Shown: positions 24,465-52,978 of the stretch, one piece after another | How positions within the stretch are numbered: the stretch's first letter is position 1 | How the letters are laid out: every line of letters starts with the position of its first letter | DNA from: Candidatus Nanopelagicales bacterium | Lineage (GTDB): Bacteria > Actinomycetota > Actinomycetes > S36-B12 | Direction: 5' to 3' | DNA length: 62,637 bases | Assembly (NCBI GenBank): GCA_023253325.1 | Contig: JALRGY010000002.1 | Coordinates: 1 to 62,637 of the forward strand | Notes under the pieces: generated by a model | Seen by the model: the letters and a program-made list of their open reading frames with translations, nothing else | The model's database searches: none | What the model was told of the DNA's origin: nothing | Program-made: the position numbers and the translations under genes

Positions 24465-25364
24465 GTGAGCGACAGGCTAAGCGTGACCACTCCGAGGGAT
24501 GATGCCCTTTCCGGGCGCAATGAGGTCCTGCTTCAACGGATTGCGCGCCCACAGTCGCTGATCTTTACCATTTATGGCGCCTATAGCCGCTCCCTCGGTG
24601 GATGGATGTCCGTCGGTGCATTGCTTGAATTGTTGCGGGAAATCGGAGTCGAGGACCCAGCAGTAAGAAGCGCCCTGTCCCGCTTTAAACGTCGAGGTGT
24701 GCTGATCTCCGAATCTCGAGATGGCTCAGCAGGCTATGCACTGAGTGAAAGCGCACGGCGCACTTTCGACATTGGTGACGCACGCGTCTTGGAGCGACGG
24801 GAGCCTCCTTCGAGCGACCGATGGGTTCTCATTGCCTTTTCCATTCCAGAAAAATCGCGGGATCTGAGATACCGTCTGCGATCACGGTTATCCCGAGTCG
24901 GCTTTGCACAGGTGACTGGCGGGCTTTGGATCGCACCCGAGGGGCTTGAAGTAGATGCTCGGCTGGTGATCGAATCCCTAGGTGTCAGCGAACATGTTGA
25001 TGTATTTCGCAGTGAACACGTTGCTTTCCGCAGCATGCCTGACGCGGTCGGTGAGTGGTGGGACCTCCAATCCATCGCAAATGAGTATCAGGATTTTTCT
25101 TCAACTTTTGCTGACCTCACAGAGGACTATAAATCTGGAAAAATAGAGATGACGCCCCTGCAGGCATTCATTGATTACACGCGTGTGCTCACCGCGTGGC
25201 GACCCCTGCCCTATCGAGATCCAGGGCTTCCTGCCGCGCATCTACCAATGGACTGGCCTGGAATCCAAGCCACTCAAATGTTTTTCAACTTTTACGACAT
25301 ACTCGGTGGCTTGGCGCAACAACATGTGATCGATGTTTGTTCAGCGCGAAATAGGCAGTCTTAA
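24465..25364 (+). CDS. PaaX-family transcriptional regulator
   Basis: N-terminal winged-helix region (RPQSLIFTIYGAY...VRSALSRFKRRGVL) and a C-terminal PaaX_C-like region (TAWRPLPYRDPGLP). GTG start. Confidence 0.7.
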   Translation: MSDRLSVTTPRDDALSGRNEVLLQRIARPQSLIFTIYGAYSRSLGGWMSVGALLELLREIGVEDPAVRSALSRFKRRGVLISESRDGSAGYALSESARRTFDIGDARVLERREPPSSDRWVLIAFSIPEKSRDLRYRLRSRLSRVGFAQVTGGLWIAPEGLEVDARLVIESLGVSEHVDVFRSEHVAFRSMPDAVGEWWDLQSIANEYQDFSSTFADLTEDYKSGKIEMTPLQAFIDYTRVLTAWRPLPYRDPGLPAAHLPMDWPGIQATQMFFNFYDILGGLAQQHVIDVCSARNRQS

Positions 25365-26911
25365 AAATCTGAAGTGGGCTGCCACTTCCCGTACACCTCG
25401 CGCAAAACGTTTGTGATCTCCCCTACCGTTGCATACTCTTTAACAGCGACCACAACCGCGGGAACGATATTAATTCCGGCTTGGGCCGCTAATAACAAAC
25501 TCTCGAGGGATTCAGTCACTTTATCCGTGTTTCTTTTTAACTTTATTTTCGCGAGGTCAGCGATTTGTCGTTGCTCGCTTTCCTTATCAATTTCAAAGAC
25601 CTCAAACCTCGCGGACTCTGACACAAAGGTATTAACACCAATAACTTTTTGATCACCTGAGTCAATGGCACGCGCAGTTTCGTAGGCGCTGTCTGAGAGT
25701 TTGGTGGCGAAATAGCCGGACTCGATGCAGGCAAGTGCTCCACCAAGTTCGGCGATCTTGTCCATCTCAGAAAAAATGGCGGCTTCGAGTTCGTCGGTCA
25801 GACTCTCGAGGAGTTCACTGCCGCCGAGAGGATCAACGAGTCCCGTGACACCTGTTTCAAAGGCAACAACCTGCTGTGTACGCAGGGCAAGCGTGGCAGC
25901 TGCTTCGGTGGGAACACCCAAGGCTTCATCGAACGCACAGACATGCATTGTTTGGCAACCACCCAATGCGGCGGCAAGTGCTTCAATTGAAGTGCGCACA
26001 ACGTTGTTCAGTGGTTGTTGGGCTGTCAAAGACGAGCCCGCAGTGAAGGCAAATATCCTCAGTTGCTCGGAGCGAGGATCTTGTGAGCCATAACTCTCAC
26101 GCATTAACTTTGCCCAGACTCGTCGAGCTGCGCGAAATTTTGCAACTTCAGGCATGAACTCCATATTGCTCGATAGAAACGTGAACAGCGTTGGTGCAAC
26201 GTCATCGACGGTCATACCGCGTTCGATGGCTGCGTCCATGTACGCCCGCGCGTTAGCAAAGGTGAAGGCAATTTCCTGAACGGCACTGGAACCTGACTCG
26301 CGAATGTGATAGCCGCTCATGGCGAGGGAGACCCATCGAGGAATTTTTGTGGCGACATGTTCAATAACATCGACTGACAGCTTCAGGCCCGCCGGAGCGG
26401 GGAAGATCTGAGTGCCGCGGGCAAAATACTCTTTAAGCACGTCATTTTGAATAAACATTCCGAATTTATTGGGATCCACTCCGCGCTTTTCAGCCAACGC
26501 TTCAAACATGGCCGCCCAGATGTAACCGATGGAGTTCGCAGTGGTTCGAACTTGGGTGATTTTCTCGAGTTCAATGCCATCCATCAAGATTTCAATGTCG
26601 GCCAAACTGTCAATGGCGACACCAACTTTGCCAACCTCCCCCGCCGCAAGAGGATTATCCGAGTCAAGTCCCATTTGTGTGGGGAGGTCAAGAGCGACAC
26701 TGAATCCCGTGAGACCTTGATCTAACAAAGAACGAAATCGAGCATTGGTTTCCTTGGCGGTTCCAAAGCCTGCATACTGCCCCATGGTCCACACTCCGGG
26801 ATCCGCACTAATTCCACGGGTGTAGGGGTAGGCGCCAGGAACCTCTTGGCTCTGTGAGTTACTCACTTTATTGACCCTTTCCACTTGTTTCTTCTGCGTT
26901 GAGTTCCTCAC
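25361..26911 (-). CDS. acyl-CoA mutase large (substrate-binding) subunit, methylmalonyl-/isobutyryl-CoA mutase family, without a B12-binding domain
   Basis: PGAYPYTRGI...QYAGFGTAKETNARFRSLLDQGLTGFSVALDLPTQMGLDSD is the hallmark N-terminal TIM-barrel signature. At 516 aa it ends before any DxHxxG cobalamin domain. Confidence 0.85.
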   Translation of the reverse strand: MRNSTQKKQVERVNKVSNSQSQEVPGAYPYTRGISADPGVWTMGQYAGFGTAKETNARFRSLLDQGLTGFSVALDLPTQMGLDSDNPLAAGEVGKVGVAIDSLADIEILMDGIELEKITQVRTTANSIGYIWAAMFEALAEKRGVDPNKFGMFIQNDVLKEYFARGTQIFPAPAGLKLSVDVIEHVATKIPRWVSLAMSGYHIRESGSSAVQEIAFTFANARAYMDAAIERGMTVDDVAPTLFTFLSSNMEFMPEVAKFRAARRVWAKLMRESYGSQDPRSEQLRIFAFTAGSSLTAQQPLNNVVRTSIEALAAALGGCQTMHVCAFDEALGVPTEAAATLALRTQQVVAFETGVTGLVDPLGGSELLESLTDELEAAIFSEMDKIAELGGALACIESGYFATKLSDSAYETARAIDSGDQKVIGVNTFVSESARFEVFEIDKESEQRQIADLAKIKLKRNTDKVTESLESLLLAAQAGINIVPAVVVAVKEYATVGEITNVLREVYGKWQPTSDF

Positions 26912-28430
26912 GCAAAACCTTTTTTGCGATTTTCCCCGTTGAGTTCAGCGGAAATTCGGTCACAATGCGAACATCTTTTGGTTTTTTATATGACGCTAGG
27001 TTCGCTTTGCAATGCTCAAGAATTGAATCGATACTCGTATCAGCCCCATCGCGCAGTGTCACAAGTGCGGTGACGTGCTGCCCCCAGTCCGAGTCATTTA
27101 CTCCGACGACAGCAACTTCGTGGACGCCGGGGACTTCAGCGATGGTGTCTTCGATTTCACGAGGGTAGATGTTGTAGCCACCTGAAATAATCATGTCACC
27201 TTTACGGTCTACCAAGAAAAGGTAGTCATCAGCATCAAGGCGGCCAAGATCACCGGTGTGAAGCCAGCCATCGCGCACCGCCTTGGTCACCGTGTTGTCT
27301 TGTCCAGCTTGACCGTAGTACCCGCGCATGACGTGATCGCCTCGAGTAATTACCTCACCGATTTCTCCTGAAGGTACGTCATTGCCTTGTTCATCGACAA
27401 TGCGTACTTCAACTCCATTACACGGATTGCCAGCGCTGGTGAGTAATTCGGGTTCACCAAAAATTCCGCGTCGGTGCTCTTCGGGTCCAAGTACAGTGAC
27501 CGGTGGAATGGCCTCAACTAACCCGTAATACTGACTCATGTTGACGGTAATTCGTTCATAACAATCCTTGATTTGTTCGGGCGGCATTGGTGCCCCCGCA
27601 TATCCCATGATTTCAAGATTCTTCATGCGCTCACGGGATATGTCCGGCATCGCGAGAAGTCGTGCCACCATGGTCGGGACAAGTGCCGTTCCATTCGCTC
27701 CACGGTTTTCAATGGCATCCACCAAGTCTTCGGGGTCGTACTTAGCTTGAACAATTTGCTTGGCACCGAATGTGAAATAAGGCAAGACAAACAAGCCTGT
27801 TGTATGTGTAACCGGTCCCGCGTGAACCCAAGTGCTGTTTTCATTGGGAACTTTGCCTAAAAAGTCTGTAACTATGTTGTGCAAACTCGCCATTCTGTTG
27901 CGGTGTGTGCGGATCGCCCCTTTGGGGTTGCCCGTTGTCCCACTTGAGTAGTTCAACGAGACCAACGCATCCGGGTCAACAGAAAGTAGCAGTGGTTCGG
28001 GAGACTGTGCCGCGAGAAAGCGTTCATATTCTGTGCTCTGGCCCGGATCTCCATTGATAACAATGACGTGATCCACCATCGATCGTATTTCGGCGGTCTG
28101 ATCCCAAAATTTAACATCAAGAATGAGTACCTTGGGCGTGCAGTCATTTGTGATTCTGACCCAGTCAGTTGGATGAAGACGGTAGTTGAGCGCCACGCGA
28201 CACAAGCCAGCTGTGCTGATGCCTAGGTCAGTTTCAATGTATGTGTTCTGATTGGACTGTAAATCCAAAACCCGATCGCCCGTCTCGAGTCCCAATGCAC
28301 GCAAGCCACGAGCAAGCTGCATTACTCGCGCTCCCGTTTGACCATAGGAGCTTTCACCCTCAGGACCAATAAGGGCAATGCGATCTCGGTACCTTTGCAT
28401 TGAGCGTGCAACGAGTCGACCAACATCCAT
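26868..28430 (-). CDS. AMP-forming acyl/aryl-CoA ligase (class I adenylate-forming enzyme)
   Basis: YSSGTTGNPKG (A3), GYGLVE-like, TGDLG, and IISGGYNIYPREIE motifs, with a C-terminal GKIAKK lysine. Confidence 0.85.
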   Translation of the reverse strand: MDVGRLVARSMQRYRDRIALIGPEGESSYGQTGARVMQLARGLRALGLETGDRVLDLQSNQNTYIETDLGISTAGLCRVALNYRLHPTDWVRITNDCTPKVLILDVKFWDQTAEIRSMVDHVIVINGDPGQSTEYERFLAAQSPEPLLLSVDPDALVSLNYSSGTTGNPKGAIRTHRNRMASLHNIVTDFLGKVPNENSTWVHAGPVTHTTGLFVLPYFTFGAKQIVQAKYDPEDLVDAIENRGANGTALVPTMVARLLAMPDISRERMKNLEIMGYAGAPMPPEQIKDCYERITVNMSQYYGLVEAIPPVTVLGPEEHRRGIFGEPELLTSAGNPCNGVEVRIVDEQGNDVPSGEIGEVITRGDHVMRGYYGQAGQDNTVTKAVRDGWLHTGDLGRLDADDYLFLVDRKGDMIISGGYNIYPREIEDTIAEVPGVHEVAVVGVNDSDWGQHVTALVTLRDGADTSIDSILEHCKANLASYKKPKDVRIVTEFPLNSTGKIAKKVLREELNAEETSGKGQ

Positions 28431-28458
28431 TGTGGTGCCTCCTAATTAGTTTGATTGT

Positions 28459-30510
28459 CTAGTCAGTGGGGGGTGAAACATACGCTGCATCGAGGACCCA
28501 ACAGCCGCGCTCAAGAACGGTCACCGGATTTATGTCTAATTCACAACCAGTTGGCCAATTTCTCACACCGTGCGCAAGGGTCTCAATAAATGTGACCAAA
28601 GCCTTGCGGTCTGATGGTTGGGTGCCTCGTGCACCTGCGAGTAATTGCTCAAGCGCGGTCTCAGAAATCATCTGCTCAATATCAACTCGATCTACAGGGA
28701 GCAGACGCACCGAAGCACTCGCCACAATCTCCGTCAAAACCCCGCCAACCCCCACCGTGAGCACCGGTCCCATGGAGCTCCCGCTGATTCCAACCAGGAC
28801 TTCAATTCCCCCGGGAACAAACCTTTCAACGAGCACATCACCACCCATGGCTTTCAGTGTGGTGAAGGTTTTCACGGCTTGATCAGTTGTTACATCAAGC
28901 ACCACTCCGCCTGCATCGGACTTGTGAAGCAGTCCTGGAACGATGGCCTTGAAAACTGCCCTGCCGCCAACGTTGTCAACGGCGTCGAGGACCTGTGCAG
29001 ACTCACTGACAAGAATTGATTCAGGGATGGGTAATCCTGAGGATGCGAGTAATTCCTTTAATTCCTTTTCCGATGCACCTGGTGAAGGGGTGGGAATCTC
29101 GGAAGGAGAGGCTACATCGAATGCACGATCAACTCTCGTGTTCACGGTGACGAGGGCGCGCAGGGCAGCCACAGCCCGTTCGGGGGTTGGATACACAGGG
29201 ACACCTGCTCTTTTGAGCACTTCAGCGCCCTCGGGCGCAAGTGCAGCCGCGCCCGTGCGAACCGCCGCCACGGGAAGACCAGTTCGTACCCGCACTTCAT
29301 GTAGGGCGGTCGCAATTCTGTCAACATCCTTGCCCACCAACACTGCAAAGCAAGCGACGATTGCATTCACCGCTGGATCGTCAGCCAACCGATCAACACA
29401 ACGTTCAAATAAGCCTGGTTCAGCCATCACCGCAGCAGTGACATCGACCGGGTTCGTAGCATTGCCATAACTGGGAACAATCTGTTCTAGGTCGGACACT
29501 GTGGATTGATCAAGATTGGCAAGGACCAAACCTTCTTTTTCGATTGCATCGACGGCGAGGATTCCACTTCCCCCGGATGTAGTGACGATGCCAACCCCTG
29601 AGCCACCGATGGCTCTCTCCGATGCAAACAGGGAAGCGACATCGAGCAACTCATCAATGTTGTCGACTCTAGCTATGCCATATTGTTTTAATCCTGCGCT
29701 CACCACTTTGTCTGGCGACGCCAACGCTCCAGTGTGCGAAGCCGCGGCCTCCGCTCCCGCCGCACTGCGCCCAGCTTTAAGGATTGCTATTGGTTTGGTT
29801 GCCGCAACCTGCGCTAATAAATCCAGATTTCCCAATGACTCAACGTACATAACAACAGCATCGACACCAGGGTCCTGCGCAAGTTGCACAGCAACTTCAG
29901 TAGCTGTGACATCTGCTTCGTTGCCGGTTGTGATGGCGATCCCAGTGGGGACACCACGTTCAAGACCAAGGGACAGTGCTCCAAAACCAAGGGCACCCGA
30001 TTGGCTCACTAACGCAATGCGTCCGTTAGGTAACGGGGTTGCTTCGGATGAAAAGACTGGGCTAAACGTTGCCATCACTTTATGGGCGCCGCCCACTGAC
30101 CCGATGCAGTTTGGCCCGACAATTCGCATTCCCTTGGTTCGGGCGATATCGACCAATTCCTGTTGTGCGGCAGCGCCTTTTTCATCAACCTCAGCGAAAC
30201 CTGAAGACATGACGATAGCCACATTCACACCAGCGTCCGCGCAATCCCGCACGGCATCTTTGACGTGTTGAGCTGGCACCATAATGAGGGCAAGGTCAAT
30301 ATGTTGTGGAACAGATGCCATGGAGGGGAATGCCTCCATACCGAAAATCTCTCCGCCCTTTGGGTTCACGGGCGCAATGAATCCATCAAAACCATGTTTG
30401 ATCAAGTACTCGAGCGGCAAGCGGCCCATTGCGCCGACGCGCTCCGTCGCCCCGATGACGGCGATGGATGTCGCCGCCCACAGGGGACGCAGATCAAGGT
30501 GTGATGTCAC
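28459..30510 (-). CDS. ADP-forming (NDP-forming) acyl-CoA synthetase, fused CoA-binding/ligase and ATP-grasp domains
   Basis: 683 aa. N-terminal IAVIGATER...VNPKGGEI (CoA_binding), SQSGALG and catalytic-His-region AASHTGALA, and a C-terminal ATP-grasp-like region. Confidence 0.8.
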   Translation of the reverse strand: MTSHLDLRPLWAATSIAVIGATERVGAMGRLPLEYLIKHGFDGFIAPVNPKGGEIFGMEAFPSMASVPQHIDLALIMVPAQHVKDAVRDCADAGVNVAIVMSSGFAEVDEKGAAAQQELVDIARTKGMRIVGPNCIGSVGGAHKVMATFSPVFSSEATPLPNGRIALVSQSGALGFGALSLGLERGVPTGIAITTGNEADVTATEVAVQLAQDPGVDAVVMYVESLGNLDLLAQVAATKPIAILKAGRSAAGAEAAASHTGALASPDKVVSAGLKQYGIARVDNIDELLDVASLFASERAIGGSGVGIVTTSGGSGILAVDAIEKEGLVLANLDQSTVSDLEQIVPSYGNATNPVDVTAAVMAEPGLFERCVDRLADDPAVNAIVACFAVLVGKDVDRIATALHEVRVRTGLPVAAVRTGAAALAPEGAEVLKRAGVPVYPTPERAVAALRALVTVNTRVDRAFDVASPSEIPTPSPGASEKELKELLASSGLPIPESILVSESAQVLDAVDNVGGRAVFKAIVPGLLHKSDAGGVVLDVTTDQAVKTFTTLKAMGGDVLVERFVPGGIEVLVGISGSSMGPVLTVGVGGVLTEIVASASVRLLPVDRVDIEQMISETALEQLLAGARGTQPSDRKALVTFIETLAHGVRNWPTGCELDINPVTVLERGCWVLDAAYVSPPTD

Positions 30511-31675: not shown

Positions 31676-31735
31676 CGGACTTCCCTTTCTGAGCTAAATA
31701 TTGGGACCCAAAGACCACATGAATAGTGCACTTCT

Positions 31736-31759: not shown

Positions 31760-31760
31760 C

Positions 31761-48270: not shown

Positions 48271-48992
48271 TCGCGATCCTCTCCGGTGCCGAAGTACGCT
48301 GCTGCAAGCTTTGCTTCGTCCTGCGCGTCAGACTGCGACAACGTCGCTCGTATGTGTCCTTCCCGCATGACTAACGTGCGGACCGCAATACTCATGACCA
48401 GATGAGCTCGTTGTTCGACAACGATAATTGCTGTGCCTCGTTCTTGGATTCGAGCGAGCACTCCGAAGACATCCTGAATAACAGTGGGAGAAAGACCGAG
48501 GCTTGGTTCATCTAATAACAAGAGTTTGGGTTCTGAGACCAATGCTCTAGCGATGGCCAACTGCTGCTGTTGACCGCCACTCAAAAGTCCAGCCTGATGA
48601 TTCTTGTGCGTGGTGAGGACGGGGAAAAGGTCCATGACTTCATCTACTGCTTGCTGTGCACCAGATTTCTCACGTCGACCAGTGAGACCAAGGCGTAAAT
48701 TTTCGTTTACTGTTAGATCAGTGAAAATGGCGCGCCCTTCCGGCACCATGGCTAACCCAAGCCGCACAATATCTTCAGGGTTTTTTCCTTTTATTGATGC
48801 GCCGTCAAAGTCAATGGACCCACTGCTGGCTCGAACTGAACCCGCGAGGGTGCCCAAAAAGGTTGACTTTCCTGCACCGTTGGGTCCAACAATCCCTACA
48901 AGTTCACCCGGTTCCACATCAATGTGGCCGTTGTACAGGACCTGCACTTTGCCATAGCCTGATTGGAGGTCGCGGACAGTGAGCAGAGTCAT
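48267..48992 (-). CDS. ABC transporter ATP-binding protein, LivF-like
   Basis: Walker A GPNGAGKST, signature LSGGQQQ, Walker B LLLLDEPS. Confidence 0.88.
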   Translation of the reverse strand: MTLLTVRDLQSGYGKVQVLYNGHIDVEPGELVGIVGPNGAGKSTFLGTLAGSVRASSGSIDFDGASIKGKNPEDIVRLGLAMVPEGRAIFTDLTVNENLRLGLTGRREKSGAQQAVDEVMDLFPVLTTHKNHQAGLLSGGQQQQLAIARALVSEPKLLLLDEPSLGLSPTVIQDVFGVLARIQERGTAIIVVEQRAHLVMSIAVRTLVMREGHIRATLSQSDAQDEAKLAAAYFGTGEDRE

Positions 48993-49726
48993 GCTCGCCC
49001 TCCATGTAGACCCATGGTGGCATCGCCCAAATAGGCCGATAAAACACCTTCATCGACCAGAGCGTCTTGAGGATTGCCTTCAAAAAGTAGTTCACCCGAT
49101 GCCAACACGAATACCCGAGAACAGGCTGCTGCCACGAGCCCCACATTGTGCTCAATCAGGAGCATGCCGCACCCAGATTCACGGCGAATACTGTCCAGCG
49201 CTGCCAGTAGTGCCGGTGTCTCGTGATCATTGAGACCGGCGGCGGGTTCATCCATGATCAAATAATCAGGTTCAGAGGTTACGGCACGAGCGAGACCAAC
49301 GAGTCGGGAAAGTCCATGTGAAAGCCCAGCTGCAGATTCCGTTTGTACACCTGATAGGCCCAGCATCTCAATAGCCGCGGCAGCACGACCATTCGCTTTC
49401 TTTGTGGAGCATCCAGATCCAATGGCTCCCAAAACTATATTTTCAGTGACTGTCAAATCTGGGAATAATCGTCCAGATTGAAATGTGCGGGCCAGCCCAG
49501 CATGTGTGCGGGCCTCCGGTGTCATTCCGTCGAGATTGCGACCATCAATCGCCACGGTCCCAGAATCCTGAGTCTCATACCCCGCGATTATGTTCACTAA
49601 AGTGGTTTTGCCTGCGCCGTTGGGTCCCAACAACCCAACTACTTCCCCTTTATTGACAGAAACCGTGACATCCTCGAGGACATGAATTGCGCCAAAGGAT
49701 TTCACGATGGACGCAGCCTCTAGCAT
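48989..49726 (-). CDS. ABC transporter ATP-binding protein, LivG-like
   Basis: Walker A GPNGAGKTT, signature-like LSHGLSR, Walker B YLIMDEPAAGL. The ATG at 49726 is preferred; the track ORF extends to 49780. Confidence 0.85.
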   Translation of the reverse strand: MLEAASIVKSFGAIHVLEDVTVSVNKGEVVGLLGPNGAGKTTLVNIIAGYETQDSGTVAIDGRNLDGMTPEARTHAGLARTFQSGRLFPDLTVTENIVLGAIGSGCSTKKANGRAAAAIEMLGLSGVQTESAAGLSHGLSRLVGLARAVTSEPDYLIMDEPAAGLNDHETPALLAALDSIRRESGCGMLLIEHNVGLVAAACSRVFVLASGELLFEGNPQDALVDEGVLSAYLGDATMGLHGGRA

Positions 49727-49848
49727 TTGTGTCACAAAAAGCTCCCGAGAGAAGTGTTGACGCGCGCAATAAGCACACAATGAACACTAGTTGGTGAATA
49801 AGCAGGCTGCGGGGAAAACATGCAATCCCCGCAGCCTGCTGTGTTCAA

Positions 49849-51123
49849 CTAGTTGAGAATTGGCTGTTCTGCAGCGCGGTACTCAATGAATGAATGCTGT
49901 CCATCCTGAATCTGCATGACTGCCATGGGGCGAGTCACGTTAACGTGCAATTCAGGTGAGAAGCTCGTTGGTCCAGCAGTCAGATCAACGCCATTGAATG
50001 TTTCCAATGCTGCAGCAAGGTCAGCACCATTGGTGCTGCCAGCTTGTTCAGCCGCAAGTACAAATGCCTCGATTGTTGAGGCACCCGTGACCAAGCCACT
50101 GGTTGCTGCATCGCTGCCGGTCAGATCCTTGTAGGAGGCCAAAAGTTCGCCAACCTTGGGATTGGGATCGTCACCGAAAACGGATGCGTAGGTCACGAAG
50201 TAGAAGTCCGAAAGATCTGGGACTGCTCCGAGCCAGAACGCACCATCCATGCCAAAGCCGGATACGACTGGTGTTTCAACTCCACCTGCACGAAGTGCAG
50301 CTGCAGCCTCAGCGCCACCACCTGGGTAGGAGCACAGGGCAACGACGTCAGGACTTGAGTCCTTGATTTCCTTGACCTGTGCGGTCACGGGGGCAGCAAG
50401 TGAGCCTTCAGGTGTCTGGCTGAACTCTGGAGCAGAAACGATTTCGCCACCAAGTTGAGTCCAACGCTCTTCGAAGACCTTGCACTGATTCTGGGTGTAC
50501 TTGATGGACATGTCCTTGAACAGTGAAGCCTTGGGGCCAAACTCTGCAAATGCCCATTCAGCCATGATTGCTGCTTCACCGGGGACTGCGGAACCAAGAG
50601 AGAAGCCGAGGGTCAATCCGGCGTCAGGGCCCATGATCGTGTCACCAACACACGGAGCAATAACCAGCACACCGGCATCCTGAGCAACCTGGGAAGCCTT
50701 AGCGTTGACGTCGTAGTCACATGTGACAAGAAGGAGTTGTGCACCCTGTGAAATCAGGTCAGTCGCGATTTGTGCTGCTTTATCAGGGTTTGTCTCACTA
50801 TCTACAGCAATGAGTTCAAGTTGGCAGCCAAGAACGCCGCCCGCTGCGTTGGTCTTATCGATGGCGATACGCGCCGTATCCAAAGCAGGGACGTCAAAAG
50901 GAGACATAAATCCTGTTTGGGCCATGGCCGAACCAACAATGATCGGCTCGGTGCATTCCGCGGCAACTTCCTCTTCCGTGGTTTCTTCCGCTACCGCGGT
51001 TTCTTCCGCTACCGCTTCGGTAGTCGCTTCATCCGCCGTGTCTGATGTTGAGGCGCAGCCCGCGAGCACCAGGCTCAGGCTCGCCGCTACCGCGAGAATC
51101 CCCGCGGTTTTTCGGTTCTTCAT
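49849..51123 (-). CDS. ABC transporter substrate-binding lipoprotein (type I periplasmic binding fold, Leu/Ile/Val-binding family)
   Basis: Lipobox LAGCAS, an acidic E/T/A-rich linker, then a PBP1-type domain. Track start at 51141; ATG at 51123 is equally plausible. Confidence 0.82.
   Translation of the reverse strand: MKNRKTAGILAVAASLSLVLAGCASTSDTADEATTEAVAEETAVAEETTEEEVAAECTEPIIVGSAMAQTGFMSPFDVPALDTARIAIDKTNAAGGVLGCQLELIAVDSETNPDKAAQIATDLISQGAQLLLVTCDYDVNAKASQVAQDAGVLVIAPCVGDTIMGPDAGLTLGFSLGSAVPGEAAIMAEWAFAEFGPKASLFKDMSIKYTQNQCKVFEERWTQLGGEIVSAPEFSQTPEGSLAAPVTAQVKEIKDSSPDVVALCSYPGGGAEAAAALRAGGVETPVVSGFGMDGAFWLGAVPDLSDFYFVTYASVFGDDPNPKVGELLASYKDLTGSDAATSGLVTGASTIEAFVLAAEQAGSTNGADLAAALETFNGVDLTAGPTSFSPELHVNVTRPMAVMQIQDGQHSFIEYRAAEQPILN
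50980..51015 (-). repeat. 2 x 18-bp tandem repeat within the binding-protein linker (encodes AVAEET AVAEET)
   Basis: Read directly on the plus strand: ggtttcttccgctaccgc ggtttcttccgctaccgc. Confidence 0.85.
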
Positions 51124-51187
51124 TTGTTCTCCCTCATTCATTCGTGGATTAAGGCAACTGCCCTTGTGCCCATCTATGCCGTAATTC

Positions 51188-51210
51188 TGTCGTACGTCAA
51201 TAATACGACA
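51188..51210. promoter_or_regulatory. candidate operator site C (TGTCGTACGTCAATAATACGACA) upstream of the ABC importer operon
   Basis: Perfect 7-bp inverted arms TGTCGTA/TACGACA around CGTCAATAA. TATTAT on the minus strand is -10-like, about 50-70 nt upstream of the binding-protein start. Confidence 0.5.
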
Positions 51211-51260
51211 TGAACTGTTGCCATAGTGTTACCTATTTGGAAGGTATTTGCCCGCATTTT

Positions 51261-51704
51261 TCATATTTTTGTTAAAAAGGCTTCCTTGACGGTCGTCGGC
51301 CACGGAACAGCGCCGCCATGGGCATCCGGGGAATGGACGGCTGTGTGACGCCCCTCAATACAGATTCCCCCCTCAATCGTTTCCACCACAAAGCCGTATG
51401 ACACTGACGTCCGGCCCACGGCAATTACTCCTACCGTGACATCAACTTCCTGGTTAAACCAGATCCGATCCCGATAATCAATCTCGACATGAACCCGAGG
51501 AATAGATCCCGTGAGCTCAGCTGGCAAATTGAGGGCGCGTCGCAGGTCGTGTTCAACTTCTTCCATCCACCGCACTGCGACCGAAAAATGATTGTGGCCG
51601 GCGGCATCAGTGTCTGCCCATTCCAGTCTTCGCCGAACCTTAATGCTGGCCCCTGTTATTTCGTCTTTTACCGGCACAAATACTCCTTGAATCGTTAGGC
51701 ACAT
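51261..51704 (-). CDS. hotdog-fold acyl-CoA thioesterase (4HBT/YbgC-like)
   Basis: 147 aa. N-terminal V..RL.W.DTDAAGH motif typical of 4HBT-type thioesterases. Confidence 0.65.
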   Translation of the reverse strand: MCLTIQGVFVPVKDEITGASIKVRRRLEWADTDAAGHNHFSVAVRWMEEVEHDLRRALNLPAELTGSIPRVHVEIDYRDRIWFNQEVDVTVGVIAVGRTSVSYGFVVETIEGGICIEGRHTAVHSPDAHGGAVPWPTTVKEAFLTKI

Positions 51705-51835
51705 AAGAGTTAGGTATATAAAAATTGTTCCCGACTCAATCGAGCCGCATTATGAACTGAGGAACCGTAGGAGTCTCAACGTACCAAGATACACATTTAA
51801 GCTGTACTACAGCATGTAACGATGGATGCCTCTAT

Positions 51836-52978
51836 TCAAGCGAGCAAGTGCCTATTCTTTTCCAAGGAACTTAAAACGACTTTAACGTCAGTCGAGTTAT
51901 TGTAAAAATGCGGGCTTACTCTCAGGTTTCCATCGCGGGAGGAAACAATCACACCGTCGGCTGCCATAGCGTCTACCAGTGCGTGTTCATCTGTTGAGGC
52001 AATAGCAATCATGGGACCATGAGCACCTGATCCACCCGGCGTTACAACTGTGCCCCCCAGTGCTTGGACACCTTCACGGAGTTCCTCATGCAATTGGCGC
52101 GATACCTCCCAAGCGTTACTGACCCCCACATCCAACAAGAGCCCCAAACCAGCCTGGGCGGCATACATGCTCGGGACATTGGGTGTCCCCGCTTCAAATC
52201 TCCGTGCATCCTTTGCAGGGTCAAATGTGTTTATGTCCATGGAGAAAATGTCTCTCGCTGCAAACCAACCTGTTGTCGTTGGAATGTATTCGGAAGTTGT
52301 CGCTGCGTTAACAAGTGCAAAACCGACACCCGGACTGCTGAGCATGTATTTCAATAGGCCACCCACGACAAAATCTGCGCCAAGCTCGGCAAAATCAAGT
52401 GGGACTGCGCCAACTGATTGATAGGCGTCAACGAGGACGGGCACTCCCTTGCTGTGAGCTGCGTCAACTATTGCCTTTATGTCATTCATTGCGCCATTGC
52501 GGTAGCACACATGCGTGACTGACACGATCGCTGTGTCTGAGGTGATTGCATCTGCCACCTGTTGCGCAGTCACTCGATGGTCTGGGCCCTCAGGAAGGTG
52601 AACAACGGTGGCACCGCGACGTTCCTGTGCGTGCCATATCTGTCCTACGGTGGGAAACTCAAGTGATGTTGTGAGTATTTGGCTTGGACCTTTGTCAAAA
52701 TCAAAGCAACTGGCTATGGCATTAACGGCAGCTGACGCTGATGTTGTGATCGCAACCTCATCAGAGGATGCATTGAAAAGTTCACCGAGCAGTGCTCGCA
52801 CATTTTCTTGCACACCAACCCAGGTCTCCCATGGTGAACCGAATTCGACCAGACCATCTAGATAGGAGTCATAAGCGGCCCGTACTTCATCTGCCAGAGC
52901 AGCTTGGGAGCACGAGTTGATGTAGGTCTTGTTCTTAAAAATTTCGAACTTATCCCGCGCAATCGCTTCAACACCCAC
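51836..52978 (-). CDS. class V-fold PLP-dependent enzyme (kynureninase/cysteine desulfurase-like)
   Basis: 380 aa. DAYQSVG and the GGLLKYMLSSPGVGFA region (Lys in a KY-x-x-x-PG context) resemble class V aminotransferase-fold enzymes. The KY(L/M) context is closer to kynureninase-type than to SxHK desulfurases, but that is unproven. Confidence 0.7.
   Translation of the reverse strand: MGVEAIARDKFEIFKNKTYINSCSQAALADEVRAAYDSYLDGLVEFGSPWETWVGVQENVRALLGELFNASSDEVAITTSASAAVNAIASCFDFDKGPSQILTTSLEFPTVGQIWHAQERRGATVVHLPEGPDHRVTAQQVADAITSDTAIVSVTHVCYRNGAMNDIKAIVDAAHSKGVPVLVDAYQSVGAVPLDFAELGADFVVGGLLKYMLSSPGVGFALVNAATTSEYIPTTTGWFAARDIFSMDINTFDPAKDARRFEAGTPNVPSMYAAQAGLGLLLDVGVSNAWEVSRQLHEELREGVQALGGTVVTPGGSGAHGPMIAIASTDEHALVDAMAADGVIVSSRDGNLRVSPHFYNNSTDVKVVLSSLEKNRHLLA

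What the first reader, a model, noticed from the sequence alone, without database searches (positions are those of the whole stretch)
24465..52978. About 28-kb CoA-thioester catabolic island whose parts fit an anthranilate / indole-derivative (hybrid aerobic aryl-CoA) pathway, abutting the dnaB core locus
**Seen in sequence.** The island is a contiguous block containing:
- a PaaX-family regulator;
- a five-gene operon (SDR, RidA, ADP-forming acyl-CoA synthetase, AMP-forming CoA ligase, acyl-CoA mutase large subunit);
- a thiolase and a MenB/BadI-type crotonase;
- two CrtI-like flavoproteins;
- IorAB and an MFS transporter;
- a cyclase/formamidase-fold hydrolase;
- a 785-797-aa FAD-monooxygenase/OYE fusion;
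- another SDR, a five-component Liv-type ABC importer, a hotdog thioesterase and a class V PLP enzyme.

**Established knowledge.**
- FAD-monooxygenase/OYE fusions of this size are known as 2-aminobenzoyl-CoA monooxygenase/reductase (Azoarcus evansii) and salicylyl-CoA 5-hydroxylase (Streptomyces SdgC).
- As I recall, the Azoarcus 2-aminobenzoate clusters also carry a CoA ligase, beta-oxidation-type genes and a five-component ABC transporter.
- PaaX-type repressors respond to aryl-acyl-CoA effectors.
- Cyclase-fold enzymes include kynurenine formamidase and isatin hydrolase, both of which feed anthranilate.
- IOR makes indoleacetyl/arylacetyl-CoA.
- A B12 mutase acts on an aminophenyl-succinyl-CoA in the anaerobic indoleacetate (iaa) pathway that ends at 2-aminobenzoyl-CoA.

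**Inference.** This is a single regulon for tryptophan-derived aromatics (anthranilate, kynurenine, isatin or indole-3-acetate/pyruvate) degraded through CoA thioesters. To my knowledge that combination has not been described in Actinobacteria. There are no mobile-element genes, and the last gene sits only 31 nt downstream of dnaB with no terminator.
Basis: partly seen in the sequence, partly recalled or inferred. Interest (0 to 1): 0.8.

Follow-up and report, generated by a model that had tools for sequence, protein, structure and literature searches.

The report
Isatin-to-anthraniloyl-CoA breakdown gene cluster
This is a real, conserved and apparently co-regulated gene cluster of freshwater actinobacteria. 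It most likely breaks down indole-derived compounds (isatin, anthranilate) as coenzyme A esters, and it offers concrete candidate enzymes for the still-unknown lower half of the 'anthraniloyl-CoA' pathway.

Summary

**What the cluster centres on.**
- The hub is a 797-aa FAD-monooxygenase/old-yellow-enzyme fusion. It scores above NCBI's cut-off for the 2-aminobenzoyl-CoA monooxygenase-reductase / salicylyl-CoA hydroxylase family.
- It is 61% identical to the enzyme of the anthranilate-CoA pathway of Arthrobacter Rue61a.

- The 'cyclase' is an isatin hydrolase orthologue, not a kynurenine formamidase.
- The class V PLP gene is not a kynureninase and does not travel with the cluster.
- The AMP-ligase is not the classical anthranilate-CoA ligase.
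- The anthranilate-CoA route is already known in Actinobacteria.
- The nearest relatives are Nanopelagicales-type freshwater MAGs, not Microbacteriaceae.

**New observations.**
- The lower-pathway gene set is specific to this lineage: MenB-like crotonase, PcaF-like thiolase, two SDRs, RidA, two CoA synthetases and a B12 mutase.
- Isatin hydrolase recurs next to IorAB or another thiamine enzyme.
- A PaaX-type operator palindrome (TGACGNNCGTCA) sits in five promoter regions and is conserved in relatives. This supports a single regulon.

**Proposed route (inferred).** Isatin → isatinate → (IorAB) 2-aminobenzoyl-CoA → dearomatisation → RidA deamination → MenB-type ring opening to 4-oxopimeloyl-CoA → mutase/thiolase.

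**Verdict.** New variant of a known kind.

The parts
21046..22146 (+). Luciferase-like (FMN-dependent, two-component) monooxygenase. Probable accessory member, left of the finding's boundary.
   Evidence: PF00296. Orthologues at 76-92% identity lie beside SDR2/fusion or PaaX in L001, L002, L005, L013 and L083, with a flavin reductase next to it in L005.
22146..24413 (+). AraC-family regulator (22146-23228) and two NADPH:FMN reductases (23182-23835, 23832-24413).
   Evidence: Pfam. The same trio lies beside PaaX in L083, L085 and L086.
24465..25364 (+). PaaX-family repressor, the likely regulator of the cluster.
   Evidence: All three PaaX domains are present. It scores below the PaaX equivalog cut-off (154 vs 264 bits). 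It is 38-40% identical to the two PaaX-type regulators of Arthrobacter pAL1.
25361..26911 (-). Coenzyme-B12 acyl-CoA mutase large subunit. The true start is probably 10-15 codons downstream. The B12-binding small subunit is not in the window.
   Evidence: PF01642 570 bits. The closest solved structure is HcmA 4r3u, but the substrate residues are MCM-type: Tyr89, Arg207, Tyr243/His244. Homologues are 497-507 aa. The small subunit is found only in relatives.
26868..28430 (-). AMP-forming acyl-CoA ligase of fatty-acyl / OSB-CoA-ligase-like type. It is not the classical anthranilate-CoA ligase.
   Evidence: It is 27-29% identical to the pAL1, Tsukamurella and Ralstonia aryl-CoA ligases. L023 carries both types.
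28459..30510 (-). ADP-forming (NDP-forming) acyl-CoA synthetase, 683 aa.
   Evidence: Five domains of the ACD family. It scores below every equivalog cut-off. It precedes the AMP-ligase and mutase in all nine related loci where that region is visible.
30507..30905 (-). RidA enamine/imine deaminase. Proposed to deaminate the ACMR product.
   Evidence: PF01042. RidA is found near the fusion in all three cluster types.
30902..31675 (-). SDR1, the dehydrogenase type shared with proteobacterial abm-like clusters.
   Evidence: It is 43% identical to the SDR next to the Ralstonia fusion. Hits of 35-57% occur in type A loci.
31737..31758 (.). Operator-like site TGTCGATCGGCAATAATACGAC in the SDR1/thiolase divergent promoter.
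   Evidence: It is conserved with at most 2 mismatches at the same place in 14 related loci. The L023 counterpart is an exact TGACGGTCGTCA.
31701..32936 (+). Thiolase, closest to 3-oxoadipyl-CoA thiolase PcaF. Probable start is the ATG at 31761.
   Evidence: pcaF 409 bits, below the 597 cut-off. Homologues are 386-391 aa. It is always adjacent to the MenB-like gene.
32891..33733 (+). MenB-like crotonase. Proposed retro-Dieckmann ring-opening hydrolase.
   Evidence: MenB models score 342 and 316 bits and BadI 304 bits, all below their cut-offs. It keeps MenB G86, Y97, G133, Q154, G156, S161 and D163 but has Val at Tyr258. Val or Ile is conserved there in 11 orthologues.
33762..35306 (-). CrtI/CrtO-like FAD oxidoreductase 1 (upper module, role unknown).
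   Evidence: It is paired divergently with CrtI2 in L001-L007, L082-L086.
35336..35347 (.). Operator-like palindrome TGACGACCGCCA between the two CrtI-like genes.
   Evidence: A site with 1 mismatch lies in the same intergenic region in 9 related loci.
35452..37017 (+). CrtI/CrtO-like FAD oxidoreductase 2.
   Evidence: It is 33% identical to CrtI1 and 43% to a Tsukamurella plasmid gene in the same context.
37045..37056 (.). Exact operator palindrome TGACGGTCGTCA upstream of iorA.
   Evidence: Exact copies lie upstream of iorA in L007 and L067.
37101..40954 (+). IorA (37101-39356) and IorB (39353-40954): two-subunit thiamine-dependent 2-oxoacid:ferredoxin oxidoreductase that forms an acyl-CoA. 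Proposed to act on isatinate.
   Evidence: NF006179 653 bits, above the 348 cut-off. It lies next to the isatin-hydrolase-like gene in L007, L014, L067, L072 and the Tsukamurella plasmid.
40937..42187 (-). Bcr/CflA-type MFS efflux transporter. Probably an unrelated insertion.
   Evidence: It is never found in related loci. A perfect 14-bp-arm hairpin (42193-42225) separates it from the upstream gene.
42249..43019 (-). Isatin hydrolase orthologue (Mn-dependent cyclic amidase). Lies 45 nt downstream of the fusion gene on the same strand.
   Evidence: 278 bits, E 7e-82, full length, to L. aggregata isatin hydrolase A; Ralstonia and IH-B are also hit. The catalytic and Trp residues are conserved, except that a T-Q pair replaces Q219-C (PMC6117287).
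43065..45458 (-). FAD-monooxygenase/OYE fusion of the ACMR/SdgC family. The hub enzyme.
   Evidence: It is 61% identical to the pAL1 and Tsukamurella enzymes and 52% to the Ralstonia enzyme.
45475..45494 (.). Operator-like site TGACTATCGCCAATAGTACG in the fusion/SDR2 divergent promoter.
   Evidence: It is conserved at the same place in L001-L006, L013 and L016.
45550..46359 (+). SDR2 (FabG-like). Always divergent from the fusion gene in this cluster type.
46346..51141 (-). Five-component Liv-type ABC importer (LivK 49849-51141, LivG, LivF, LivH, LivM).
   Evidence: The same block lies beside SDR2/fusion in L007, L015 and L067. The binding protein is only remotely like branched-chain amino-acid binders.
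51188..51209 (.). Operator-like site TGTCGTACGTCAATAATACGAC, 47 nt upstream of livK.
   Evidence: Counterparts lie upstream of livK in L007 and L067.
51261..51704 (-). Hotdog (4HBT_2) thioesterase. Recurrent partner of the fusion enzyme.
   Evidence: It is 37% identical to the pAL1 hotdog protein. Hits occur beside the fusion in L014, L019, L022 and L036.
51836..52978 (-). Class V PLP enzyme 31 nt downstream of dnaB. Membership doubtful.
   Evidence: Kynureninase model 79 bits vs a 246 cut-off, and no KYNU_C domain. The best solved structure is a kynureninase at only 88 bits. It is not found in related type C loci.

Best explanation
The block is one co-regulated catabolic cluster of a freshwater actinobacterium. 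It funnels indole-derived compounds into 2-aminobenzoyl-CoA (anthraniloyl-CoA) and degrades that compound without an oxygenolytic ring cleavage.

**Shown by computation.**
- The gene identities.
- The conservation of the modules across related loci.
- The shared operator motif.

**Inferred route.**
1. An upper module makes and opens isatin. The isatin hydrolase orthologue gives isatinate (2-aminophenylglyoxylate, a 2-oxo acid).
2. The neighbouring IorAB 2-oxoacid:ferredoxin oxidoreductase decarboxylates isatinate oxidatively to 2-aminobenzoyl-CoA. This would explain why no classical anthranilate-CoA ligase is present.
3. The two CrtI/CrtO-like flavoproteins, and possibly the luciferase-like monooxygenase with its FMN reductases, would oxidise an indole-type precursor to isatin.
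4. The FAD/OYE fusion hydroxylates and reduces 2-aminobenzoyl-CoA to 2-amino-5-oxocyclohex-1-ene-1-carbonyl-CoA.
5. RidA hydrolyses this enamine to 2,5-dioxocyclohexane-1-carbonyl-CoA.
6. The MenB-like crotonase opens the ring by a retro-Dieckmann reaction to 4-oxopimeloyl-CoA. The substrate is the non-benzo analogue of MenB's product, and the product is the analogue of o-succinylbenzoyl-CoA.
7. Least certain: the B12 mutase shifts the thioester carbon to give 2-methyl-3-oxoadipyl-CoA. The PcaF-like thiolase then splits this into succinyl-CoA and propionyl-CoA.

**Other members.**
- The two SDRs act on the 5-oxo/4-oxo group, or on a 3-hydroxy intermediate.
- The hotdog thioesterase rescues CoA from dead-end esters.
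- The Liv-type system imports the substrate.
- The PaaX-type repressor, probably released by the aryl-CoA, controls at least five promoter regions through the palindrome TGACGNNCGTCA.
For: **Hub enzyme.**
- NF006101 scores 1179 bits, above the 1078 cut-off.
- It is 61% identical to the fusion on Arthrobacter pAL1. In that organism the adjacent ligase was assayed with anthranilate.
- In that organism, anthraniloyl-CoA and a C7H8O4-CoA (cyclohexanedione-carboxyl-CoA) appeared only in anthranilate-grown cells, and salicylate did not support growth (PMC3534580).

**RidA.** It accompanies the fusion in all three cluster types, which fits an amino substrate.

**Anthranilate link to this cluster type.** L023 joins a 58% orthologue of the assayed anthranilate-CoA ligase to the same MenB-like/thiolase/SDR/RidA/synthetase/mutase set.

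**Isatin hydrolase.**
- 278 bits over the full length, with the catalytic residues conserved.
- It sits directly downstream of the fusion gene on the same strand in the window and in 12 related loci.
- It is adjacent to IorAB in L007, L014, L067, Caulobacter L072 and the Tsukamurella plasmid.
- In L041 and L045 it is adjacent to a different thiamine-dependent enzyme plus a true kynureninase.

**MenB-like enzyme.** It keeps the MenB oxyanion-hole and Ser/Asp/Tyr97 residues, but forms a separate subfamily with Val at Tyr258.

**Mutase.**
- It has the Tyr/Arg pair that binds a carbonyl or carboxylate next to the migrating centre.
- It follows the two synthetases in all nine related loci where that region is visible.
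- It is absent from the other two cluster types.

**Regulon.**
- The window has 8 sites within one mismatch of TGACGNNCGTCA, against 2.95 expected.
- Three of these lie in cluster promoter regions, and two 2-mismatch versions lie in two more.
- The same palindrome is exact in the pAL1, Tsukamurella and L023 promoter regions.
- It is conserved at orthologous sites in relatives, including upstream of the mutase small-subunit gene in L085 and L086.
Against: - No enzyme activity was tested. Steps 2, 3, 6 and 7 are inferences from context and chemistry.
- IorAB orthologues (57-65% identity) also occur in other aromatic contexts. They could instead make indoleacetyl-CoA from indolepyruvate.
- The isatin-hydrolase-like subfamily has T-Q where the Mn ligand Gln219 lies in crystallised enzymes.
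- The family model does not separate 2-aminobenzoyl-CoA from salicylyl-CoA enzymes.
- The mutase has ordinary methylmalonyl-CoA-mutase substrate residues. In L085 and L086 its small subunit is followed by sucCD. It may therefore be a plain methylmalonyl-CoA mutase.
- No small subunit is in the window.
- The two SDRs, the two CoA synthetases, the CrtI-like pair and the luciferase-like monooxygenase have no secure role.
- L008 and L012 lack both IorAB and a classical aryl ligase within the sequence held.
Confidence: 0.55

Rival explanations
1. Salicylate pathway. The fusion is a salicylyl-CoA 5-hydroxylase (SdgC type) that makes gentisyl-CoA. The rest of the cluster processes gentisyl-CoA or unrelated acids.
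For: NCBI names the matching model 'bifunctional salicylyl-CoA 5-hydroxylase/oxidoreductase'. A hotdog thioesterase that could release gentisate is present.
Against: - No gentisate dioxygenase (cupin) or fumarylacetoacetate-hydrolase gene is in the window.
- RidA, which has no role with a hydroxy substrate, is in the operon and recurs near the fusion in all three cluster types.
- An isatin hydrolase gene sits directly downstream of the fusion gene on the same strand.
- Arthrobacter Rue61a, which carries the 61%-identical enzyme, grows on anthranilate and not on salicylate.
Confidence: 0.08
2. Indole-3-acetate / indolepyruvate pathway (iad- or iaa-like).
- IorAB makes indoleacetyl-CoA.
- The CrtI-like enzymes oxidise it.
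- The thiolase or crotonase removes the side chain to give isatin.
- The hydrolase opens isatin.
- The AMP-ligase activates a free acid.
- The mutase acts upstream on an arylsuccinyl-CoA, as in the anaerobic pathway.
For: - The Variovorax/Bradyrhizobium iad locus degrades IAA through isatin and isatinic acid to anthranilate (PMC9613470, PMC12633357).
- That locus holds IorAB homologues, an AMP-ligase, a thiolase, an alcohol dehydrogenase, a cyclase-family amidase and an ABC binding protein.
- The window has counterparts of all of these.
Against: - No Rieske oxygenase (IadCDE) or hydantoinase-like gene is present.
- The thiolase, AMP-ligase and mutase are kept in L008, L012 and L023, which lack IorAB, the CrtI-like genes and the hydrolase. 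In L023 they accompany an anthranilate-CoA-ligase orthologue, which places them downstream of 2-aminobenzoyl-CoA.
- The binding protein shows no match to any solved auxin-binding protein.
Confidence: 0.15
3. Tryptophan/kynurenine feeder. The cyclase is kynurenine formamidase and the PLP enzyme is kynureninase, giving free anthranilate that the AMP-ligase activates.
For: - The cyclase fold is shared with KynB.
- The best solved-structure match of the PLP enzyme is a kynureninase.
- True kynureninases lie near the fusion in L041, L043 and L045.
Against: - The cyclase matches isatin hydrolases at 278 bits. The only other hits in that search are three proteins at 43-106 bits, none named kynurenine formamidase.
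- The PLP enzyme is far below the kynureninase cut-off and lacks the KYNU_C domain.
- No tryptophan dioxygenase was seen in the block.
- The PLP gene is not syntenic with the cluster.
Confidence: 0.05
4. Same hub pathway, but the mutase is an ordinary split methylmalonyl-CoA mutase. It handles propionyl-CoA-derived methylmalonyl-CoA. The C7 keto-diacid is broken some other way, for example by a Baeyer-Villiger step carried out by the luciferase-like monooxygenase and its FMN reductases.
For: - The substrate-binding Tyr, Arg and His residues are those of methylmalonyl-CoA mutase.
- In L085 and L086 the small-subunit gene is followed by sucC and sucD, and malic enzyme lies next to the large subunit.
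- The luciferase-like monooxygenase with flavin reductases is a conserved neighbour. From my own knowledge, the two-component diketocamphane monooxygenases belong to that family.
Against: - The PcaF-like thiolase, present in every cluster of this type, would then have no 3-oxoacyl-CoA substrate.
- The monooxygenase is absent from L008, L012, L014 and L023.
- No propionyl-CoA carboxylase or epimerase is in the cluster.
Confidence: 0.3
5. There is no single system. Several unrelated operons merely lie side by side.
For: - There are at least eight transcription units in both orientations.
- The MFS and PLP genes are not conserved with the rest.
- IorAB orthologues occur in other contexts.
Against: - The modules co-occur in different orders across about 20 loci and two phyla.
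- A shared operator palindrome lies in five promoter regions and is conserved in relatives.
Confidence: 0.05

Closest known systems
Aerobic 2-aminobenzoyl-CoA ('hybrid') pathway of Azoarcus evansii (abm clusters). A Ralstonia solanacearum megaplasmid carries a locus (L087) that I take to be of this type. The abm gene content is from my memory of Schühle et al. 2001, which could not be read here.
   Same: - FAD-monooxygenase/OYE fusion (52% identity to the Ralstonia enzyme).
- RidA-type protein.
- SDR of the same type as SDR1 (43% identity).
- A crotonase-superfamily enzyme and a thioesterase.
- An ABC binding protein.
- All intermediates are CoA esters and ring cleavage is not oxygenolytic.
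   Different: - The Ralstonia type has an ordinary enoyl-CoA hydratase, an acyl-CoA dehydrogenase, a classical aryl-CoA ligase and a MarR regulator.
- The window has a MenB-like crotonase, a thiolase, SDR2, two other CoA synthetases, a B12 mutase and a PaaX regulator.
- The window has no acyl-CoA dehydrogenase.
Anthranilate CoA-thioester pathway of Arthrobacter sp. Rue61a (plasmid pAL1 and chromosome). The same gene set occurs in Streptomyces, Microbacterium and Tsukamurella.
   Same: - Actinobacterial host.
- Fusion enzyme at 61% identity.
- RidA at 45%, hotdog thioesterase at 37% and PaaX-type regulators at 38-40%.
- The same TGACGNNCGTCA palindrome in promoter regions.
   Different: - pAL1 continues with an acyl-CoA thioesterase, a cupin and a fumarylacetoacetate-hydrolase-family protein, and has an assayed anthranilate-CoA ligase.
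- None of these has an orthologue in the window.
iad auxin-degradation locus of Variovorax paradoxus and Bradyrhizobium japonicum.
   Same: - The route passes through isatin and isatinic acid to anthranilate.
- The locus contains IorA/IorB homologues, a cyclase-family amidase, an AMP-ligase, a thiolase and an ABC binding protein.
   Different: - The iad route starts with the Rieske oxygenase IadCDE and ends at free anthranilate.
- The role of its IorAB homologues is unassigned.
- The window has no Rieske oxygenase, and it couples the hydrolase directly to an ACMR-type enzyme.
Isatin hydrolases of Labrenzia aggregata and Ralstonia solanacearum (PDB 5NNA, 5NNB, 5NMP, 4J0N).
   Same: - Full-length match at 270-278 bits.
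- His69, His73 and Asp75 (Mn ligands), His79, Asp193 and His207 (catalytic), and Trp59, Trp61 and Trp80 (substrate stacking) are all conserved.
   Different: The subfamily linked to the cluster has Phe for Tyr204, and Thr-Gln where the crystallised enzymes have Gln219-Cys.
MenB (1,4-dihydroxy-2-naphthoyl-CoA synthase) and BadI (2-ketocyclohexanecarboxyl-CoA hydrolase).
   Same: - Same crotonase subfamily, which catalyses Dieckmann and retro-Dieckmann reactions.
- Oxyanion-hole glycines, Tyr97, Ser161, Asp163 and the bicarbonate-site Gln154/Gly156 are kept.
   Different: - It scores below the curated cut-offs of both enzymes.
- MenB Tyr258 is Val or Ile in all cluster orthologues.
- The genomic context is catabolic, beside a thiolase.

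Membership tests
ACMR / SdgC family (NCBIfam NF006101) | A single chain of about 770-800 aa with an N-terminal FAD aromatic hydroxylase domain and a C-terminal old-yellow-enzyme FMN domain. | tested here: met
   FAD_binding_3 at residues 16-340 and Oxidored_FMN at 415-747.
ACMR / SdgC family (NCBIfam NF006101) | Score above the curated equivalog cut-off. | tested here: met
   1179 bits against a cut-off of 1078, covering profile positions 2-764 of 768.
ACMR / SdgC family (NCBIfam NF006101) | Hydroxylation and reduction of 2-aminobenzoyl-CoA, as opposed to hydroxylation of salicylyl-CoA. | not testable with these tools
   Context favours the amino substrate: RidA, isatin hydrolase, and the anthranilate-CoA ligase orthologue in L023. 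No sequence marker was available.
Known 2-aminobenzoate CoA clusters (Azoarcus/Ralstonia type, Arthrobacter type) | A classical aryl-CoA (anthranilate-CoA) ligase next to the fusion gene. | tested here: not met
   The window's only AMP-ligase is 27-29% identical to those ligases. No locus of this type except L023 has an orthologue.
Known 2-aminobenzoate CoA clusters (Azoarcus/Ralstonia type, Arthrobacter type) | A RidA-family protein in the cluster. | tested here: met
   RidA at 30507-30905; 45% identical to pAL1 RidA and 34% to Ralstonia RidA.
Known 2-aminobenzoate CoA clusters (Azoarcus/Ralstonia type, Arthrobacter type) | The known downstream genes: acyl-CoA dehydrogenase plus an ordinary enoyl-CoA hydratase, or thioesterase plus cupin plus FAH. 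| tested here: not met
   The window has none of these. Among loci of the window's type (L001-L016, L023, L067) there are no orthologues of the acyl-CoA dehydrogenase, cupin or acyl-CoA thioesterase. The only hits are the MenB-like gene at 34-36% to the Ralstonia enoyl-CoA hydratase, and an FAH homologue at 41-45% in L001 and L005.
Isatin hydrolase | Cyclase fold with Mn ligands His69, His73, Asp75 and Gln219. | tested here: inconclusive
   PF04199 is matched, and His, His and Asp are conserved. The Gln219 column holds Thr, with Gln one residue later. This holds in 14 of the 17 related proteins examined.
Isatin hydrolase | Catalytic His79, Asp193 and His207, and the substrate-stacking Trp59, Trp61 and Trp80. 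| tested here: met
   All are conserved in the window protein. Fifteen of the 17 related proteins examined keep all six; L046 has His at Trp61, and L069 differs at Asp193 and His207.
Kynurenine formamidase (KynB) | Closest similarity to characterised KynB enzymes. | tested here: not met
   Four isatin hydrolase sequences match at 270-278 bits. The only other hits at E up to 0.001 are three proteins at 43-106 bits, deposited as 'cyclase family protein' or 'metal-dependent hydrolase'.
Kynureninase (TIGR01814) | Score above the cut-off, and the KYNU_C domain. | tested here: not met
   79 bits against 246, and no KYNU_C. The L041 neighbour passes, with 256 bits and KYNU_C.
MenB / BadI | Score above the curated cut-offs, and catalytic Tyr258 (E. 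coli numbering). | tested here: not met
   342 vs 380, 316 vs 343 and 304 vs 468 bits. Tyr258 is Val.
Methylmalonyl-CoA mutase | Substrate residues Tyr89, Arg207 and Tyr243/His244. | tested here: met
   The alignments to 1req and 2xij show all four.
Methylmalonyl-CoA mutase | A B12-binding domain or subunit. | tested here: not met
   There is none in the window by motif search or tblastn. Relatives encode it separately.
2-Hydroxyisobutyryl-CoA mutase (HcmA) | Ile at the Tyr89 position, Gln at the Arg207 position, and Asp117. | tested here: not met
   The window protein has Tyr, Arg and Ala at these positions, although HcmA is the best overall match.
iad auxin-degradation locus | The Rieske oxygenase IadCDE that starts the pathway. 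| tested here: not met
   No Rieske or ring-hydroxylating dioxygenase domain was found in any gene of the block.
PaaX-type regulon | A three-domain PaaX protein and a shared operator in the catabolic promoters. | tested here: met
   The three domains are present. The palindrome lies in five promoter regions and is conserved in relatives and on pAL1. The protein is below the cut-off for E. coli-type PaaX itself.

The most novel reading that the evidence does not exclude
The cluster would encode a complete route from isatin to succinyl-CoA and propionyl-CoA that uses oxygen at only one known step. It would rest on three enzyme activities that, as far as I know and as far as my literature searches here showed, have not been described:
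- an isatinate (2-aminophenylglyoxylate):ferredoxin oxidoreductase that forms 2-aminobenzoyl-CoA directly;
- a MenB-derived 2,5-dioxocyclohexanecarbonyl-CoA hydrolase;
- a coenzyme-B12 mutase that converts a 4-oxoacyl-CoA (4-oxopimeloyl-CoA) into a 2-methyl-3-oxoacyl-CoA, which would solve the gamma-keto problem by a carbon-skeleton shift.

This would close the lower 2-aminobenzoyl-CoA pathway. GapMind's authors left it out in 2022 for lack of knowledge.
Probability: 0.18. Interest if true: 0.85.

Novelty: new variant of a known kind. Interest (0 to 1): 0.62.

Why it matters
**An unresolved pathway.**
- From my own knowledge, the fate of the dearomatised product of 2-aminobenzoyl-CoA monooxygenase/reductase has never been worked out.
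- This cluster type gives a compact, co-regulated set of candidate genes. The candidates are RidA, a MenB-like hydrolase, a thiolase, a B12 mutase and two SDRs. They can be expressed and tested with defined CoA esters.

**A possible ligase-free entry.** The recurrent pairing of isatin hydrolase with a thiamine-dependent 2-oxoacid enzyme suggests a route from isatin to the CoA ester without a ligase.

**Ecology.** Close homologues of the cluster's mutase are numerous in public metagenome assemblies. The nearest loci carrying the cluster come from lake and other freshwater MAGs. The pathway may therefore matter for the turnover of indole-type signals and tryptophan-derived carbon and nitrogen by streamlined freshwater actinobacteria.

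Tried and rejected
- **B12-binding small subunit in the window.** A motif regex and a tblastn with the L008 subunit both found nothing.
- **Look-up of the window's own mutase protein.** Not on record, probably because the start codon is called differently. The hotdog protein led only to a 4.7-kb contig.
- **Schühle et al. 2001 (PMC95408).** Not held. MeqR2 was not found in the library. The published operator consensus is therefore cited from memory and was checked only indirectly on pAL1 DNA.
- **Literature searches.**
  - 'oxopimel' gave nothing on 4-oxopimeloyl-CoA.
  - Nanopelagicales plus anthranilate plus CoA gave nothing.
  - Aminobenzoyl-CoA / anthraniloyl-CoA plus mutase gave no paper on the lower pathway.
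- **Solved-structure comparison of the binding protein and the AMP-ligase.** Only generic matches, so no substrate clue.
- **Palindrome TTGGGNCCCAA.** It looked shared between two intergenic regions but is not significant.
- **Rfam and tRNA scans.** Nothing found, and in particular no cobalamin riboswitch.
- **Compositional island.** Rejected, because G+C and skew are flat.
- **A pair of CrtI-like genes in Tsukamurella.** Rejected. Only one is CrtI-like; the other is an FMO-type monooxygenase.

Full report
**1.
- The thiolase and the MenB-like crotonase lie on the plus strand.
- SDR, RidA, ADP-forming synthetase, AMP-ligase and mutase form a tight minus-strand operon with 4-nt overlaps.
- The fusion protein has an FAD hydroxylase domain and an old-yellow-enzyme domain. 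It passes NCBI's equivalog cut-off for the ACMR/SdgC family (1179 vs 1078 bits).
- The PLP gene follows dnaB after 31 nt with no terminator-like site in the gap.
- G+C is flat over the whole window, so 'island' is not justified in the compositional sense.
- No tRNA, Rfam match or mobile-element domain was found.

**2. Where it comes from, and whether the block is real.**
- A scan of one genome per species with the fusion protein gave 80 loci.
- The nearest (70-80% identity) are freshwater MAGs labelled Candidatus Nanopelagicales, Actinomycetota or Actinomycetes. Microbacterium, Streptomyces and Pedococcus are at 59-62%.
- I mapped all window proteins onto these loci, and onto contigs found through the mutase. 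The genes recur as modules in shuffled order:
  - [SDR2 / fusion, hydrolase]
  - [CrtI-like pair]
  - [MenB-like, thiolase]
  - [SDR1, RidA, ADP-synthetase, AMP-ligase, mutase]
  - [IorA, IorB]
  - [LivKGFHM]
  - PaaX
- The MFS transporter never recurs. The PLP gene does not recur in this cluster type.
- The luciferase-like monooxygenase, the AraC regulator and the two FMN reductases, just left of the finding, do recur beside the cluster. I therefore place the boundaries at about 21046 and 51704.

**3. Three kinds of cluster around the same hub enzyme.** I added reference proteins from annotated plasmids. The 80 loci then fall into three types.
- **Type A** (Ralstonia, other Proteobacteria, Gemmatimonadota, Solirubrobacterales): fusion, SDR1-type SDR, ordinary enoyl-CoA hydratase, acyl-CoA dehydrogenase, aryl-CoA ligase, thioesterase, RidA, MarR. 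As I recall it, this is the gene content described for Azoarcus evansii.
- **Type B** (Arthrobacter pAL1, Streptomyces, Microbacterium, Tsukamurella): aryl-CoA ligase, fusion, acyl-CoA thioesterase, cupin, FAH-family hydrolase, RidA, PaaX, hotdog.
- **Type C** (the window, L001-L016, L023, L067, L082-L086): SDR2, MenB-like crotonase, thiolase, SDR1, RidA, two CoA synthetases, mutase, PaaX.

Type C has no acyl-CoA dehydrogenase, cupin or classical aryl ligase. The exception is L023, which has a 58% orthologue of the Arthrobacter ligase next to the fusion gene.

**4. What the literature already knows.**
- Arthrobacter sp. Rue61a degrades anthranilate only through CoA thioesters.
- Its ligases were assayed with anthranilate.
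- Anthraniloyl-CoA, a hydroxyanthraniloyl-CoA and a C7H8O4-CoA (cyclohexanedione-carboxyl-CoA) were seen only in anthranilate-grown cells.
- Salicylate did not support growth, and PaaX-type regulators take part (PMC3534580).

The claim that such a route is undescribed in Actinobacteria is therefore wrong. The steps after the dearomatised product are still unknown. A 2022 curation effort omitted the pathway for lack of knowledge (PMC9007349).

**5. The 'cyclase' is an isatin hydrolase.**
- It matches the crystallised isatin hydrolases of Labrenzia and Ralstonia over its full length (270-278 bits, E about 1e-80). The only other hits in that search, which reported matches up to E = 0.001, are three proteins at 43-106 bits, none named kynurenine formamidase.
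- The Mn ligands His/His/Asp, the catalytic His/Asp/His and the three stacking tryptophans described in PMC6117287 are all conserved in the window protein and in 15 of the 17 related proteins examined.
- One difference marks most of the subfamily (14 of those 17): Thr-Gln replaces Gln219-Cys.
- The gene lies 45 nt downstream of the fusion gene on the same strand. That arrangement recurs in 12 loci.

**6. Isatin hydrolase pairs with a thiamine-dependent 2-oxoacid enzyme.**
- It is adjacent to IorAB in L007, L014, L067, Caulobacter L072 and a Tsukamurella plasmid. In the window only the non-conserved MFS gene separates them.
- In L041 and L045 it sits in an operon between an acetolactate-synthase-like thiamine enzyme and a true kynureninase, 5 kb from the fusion gene.
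- Isatinate, the hydrolase product, is 2-aminophenylglyoxylate, which is a 2-oxo acid.
- I infer that IorAB converts it oxidatively to 2-aminobenzoyl-CoA. As I recall, phenylglyoxylate oxidoreductase makes benzoyl-CoA in the same way.
- This would explain why the window has no classical anthranilate-CoA ligase.

The inference is not shown. IorAB orthologues at 57-65% identity occur in other aromatic contexts, and indolepyruvate remains a possible substrate. The Variovorax/Bradyrhizobium iad locus also runs through isatin and isatinic acid and carries IorAB homologues of unassigned role. That locus starts with a Rieske oxygenase that is absent here.

**7. The lower pathway.**
- RidA accompanies the fusion enzyme in all three cluster types. 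This fits hydrolysis of the enamine product to 2,5-dioxocyclohexane-1-carbonyl-CoA, the C7H8O4-CoA seen in Arthrobacter.
- That compound has the same substitution pattern as the diketo form of 1,4-dihydroxy-2-naphthoyl-CoA, the MenB product. Its retro-Dieckmann product, 4-oxopimeloyl-CoA, is the aliphatic analogue of o-succinylbenzoyl-CoA. This is my own chemical reasoning.
- It gives a reason why the crotonase is MenB-like. The enzyme keeps the oxyanion-hole glycines, Tyr97, Ser161, Asp163 and the bicarbonate site. It falls below the MenB and BadI cut-offs and has Val or Ile at Tyr258 in all 11 orthologues.
- The crotonases of type A clusters lack these residues.

**8. The mutase.**
- Overall it is closest to 2-hydroxyisobutyryl-CoA mutase. 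However, it has the methylmalonyl-CoA-mutase residues Tyr89, Arg207 and Tyr243/His244, and lacks the HcmA signature.
- It follows the two synthetases in all nine related loci where that region can be seen. It is absent from types A and B.
- It is kept in L008, L012 and L023, which lack the upper module. This argues against an Iaa-like role upstream of 2-aminobenzoyl-CoA.
- My favoured reading has modest probability. The mutase moves the thioester carbon of 4-oxopimeloyl-CoA, or of its 4-hydroxy form, to give a 2-methyl-3-oxo(hydroxy)adipyl-CoA. The PcaF-like thiolase can then cleave this to succinyl-CoA and propionyl-CoA.
- The main rival is an ordinary split methylmalonyl-CoA mutase. In L085 and L086 the small-subunit gene is followed by sucCD.
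- The window holds no small subunit.

**9. A shared operator supports one regulon.**
- The three intergenic sites 31737, 45475 and 51188 share the core CGNNAA[T/G]ANTACG. It occurs three times in the window against 0.1 expected. In relatives it recurs only at the orthologous promoter regions.
- Their left half resembles the palindrome TGACGNNCGTCA. I recall this as the operator of the anthraniloyl-CoA-responsive PaaX-type repressor MeqR2 of pAL1. I could not check the paper.
- On pAL1 DNA the palindrome is exact between a paaX-type gene and the hotdog gene, and has one mismatch between RidA and the catabolic operon. It is exact in the equivalent Tsukamurella and L023 regions.
- The window has 8 sites within one mismatch, against 2.95 expected. 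These include an exact copy upstream of iorA (37045), one between the CrtI-like genes (35336) and one upstream of livK (51188).
- Relatives keep these sites: the CrtI pair in 9 loci, and iorA and livK in L007 and L067. L085 and L086 have one 42 nt upstream of the mutase small-subunit gene.
- This ties the upper module, the lower pathway, the transporter and the mutase to one regulator.

**10. What remains open.**
- The roles of the two CrtI/CrtO-like flavoproteins, which are only remotely like phytoene desaturase.
- The roles of the luciferase-like monooxygenase with its reductases, the two SDRs and the two CoA synthetases.
- The true substrate taken up by the Liv-type system.
- Whether the hub enzyme prefers the amino or the hydroxy substrate.

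**11. Verdict.**
It is wrong or unsupported in several assignments.
- The system is a new variant of a known kind. Its value lies in specific, testable candidates for the missing steps after 2-aminobenzoyl-CoA dearomatisation and for a ligase-free entry from isatin.

Noticed in passing
window 54397-54446: A 16-nt unit (CTTTCCTTGTGACTTG) is repeated 3.1 times directly upstream of the dnaB start. Function unknown; it may be a binding-site array.
   Followed up: partly
window 42193-42225: A perfect 14-bp-arm inverted repeat (TTGGGTCCCAGTCA / TGACTGGGACCCAA, 5-nt loop) lies between the isatin hydrolase gene and the MFS gene. A similar 14-bp-arm hairpin lies between livK and livG (about 49803-49840). 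Both were read from the sequence.
   Followed up: no
L085 16170-18654 and L086 14833-17296: In 79%-identity relatives the mutase's B12-binding small subunit is encoded about 5 kb from the large subunit. It is directly followed by sucC and sucD, and an operator-like palindrome lies 42 nt upstream. Malic enzyme is inserted next to the large subunit.
   Followed up: partly
L005 4216-9137 (similar in L001): Between iorA and SDR2 these relatives carry a bicupin dioxygenase, a carbon-nitrogen hydrolase, an FAH-family hydrolase, the luciferase-like monooxygenase and a flavin reductase. The first three are absent from the window. The same cupin / C-N hydrolase / FAH / IorAB combination occurs on the Ruegeria pomeroyi megaplasmid.
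   Followed up: partly
L041 15855-19605 and L045: An operon of a thiamine-dependent acetolactate-synthase-like enzyme, an isatin-hydrolase-like protein and a true kynureninase lies near a type A fusion cluster in soil Actinomycetota MAGs.
   Followed up: yes
L091 (Variovorax boronicumulans plasmid) 15998-26574: IorAB orthologues (57% identity) sit in an operon with an ABC importer, an alpha-hydroxy-acid oxidase and an enolase-superfamily protein. This suggests a 2-hydroxy-acid to 2-oxo-acid to acyl-CoA route, either mandelate-like or aryl-lactate-like.
   Followed up: no
L020 (Pedococcus MAG): A DnaB homologue (69% identity) lies within 10 kb of the fusion gene there too. The closeness to dnaB may be older than the window's lineage, or it may be coincidence.
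   Followed up: no
window 50967-51015: An 18-nt unit repeated 2.7 times lies inside the 5' part of livK. It probably encodes a repetitive linker after the signal peptide.
   Followed up: no
L088 (Tsukamurella plasmid) 13135-14706 and 21227-22318: Next to the CrtI2 orthologue, IorAB and isatin hydrolase lie an FMO / trimethylamine-monooxygenase-like flavoprotein and a nitrilase-superfamily amidase. From my own knowledge, bacterial FMOs oxidise indole, which fits an indole-to-isatin upper route.
   Followed up: partly
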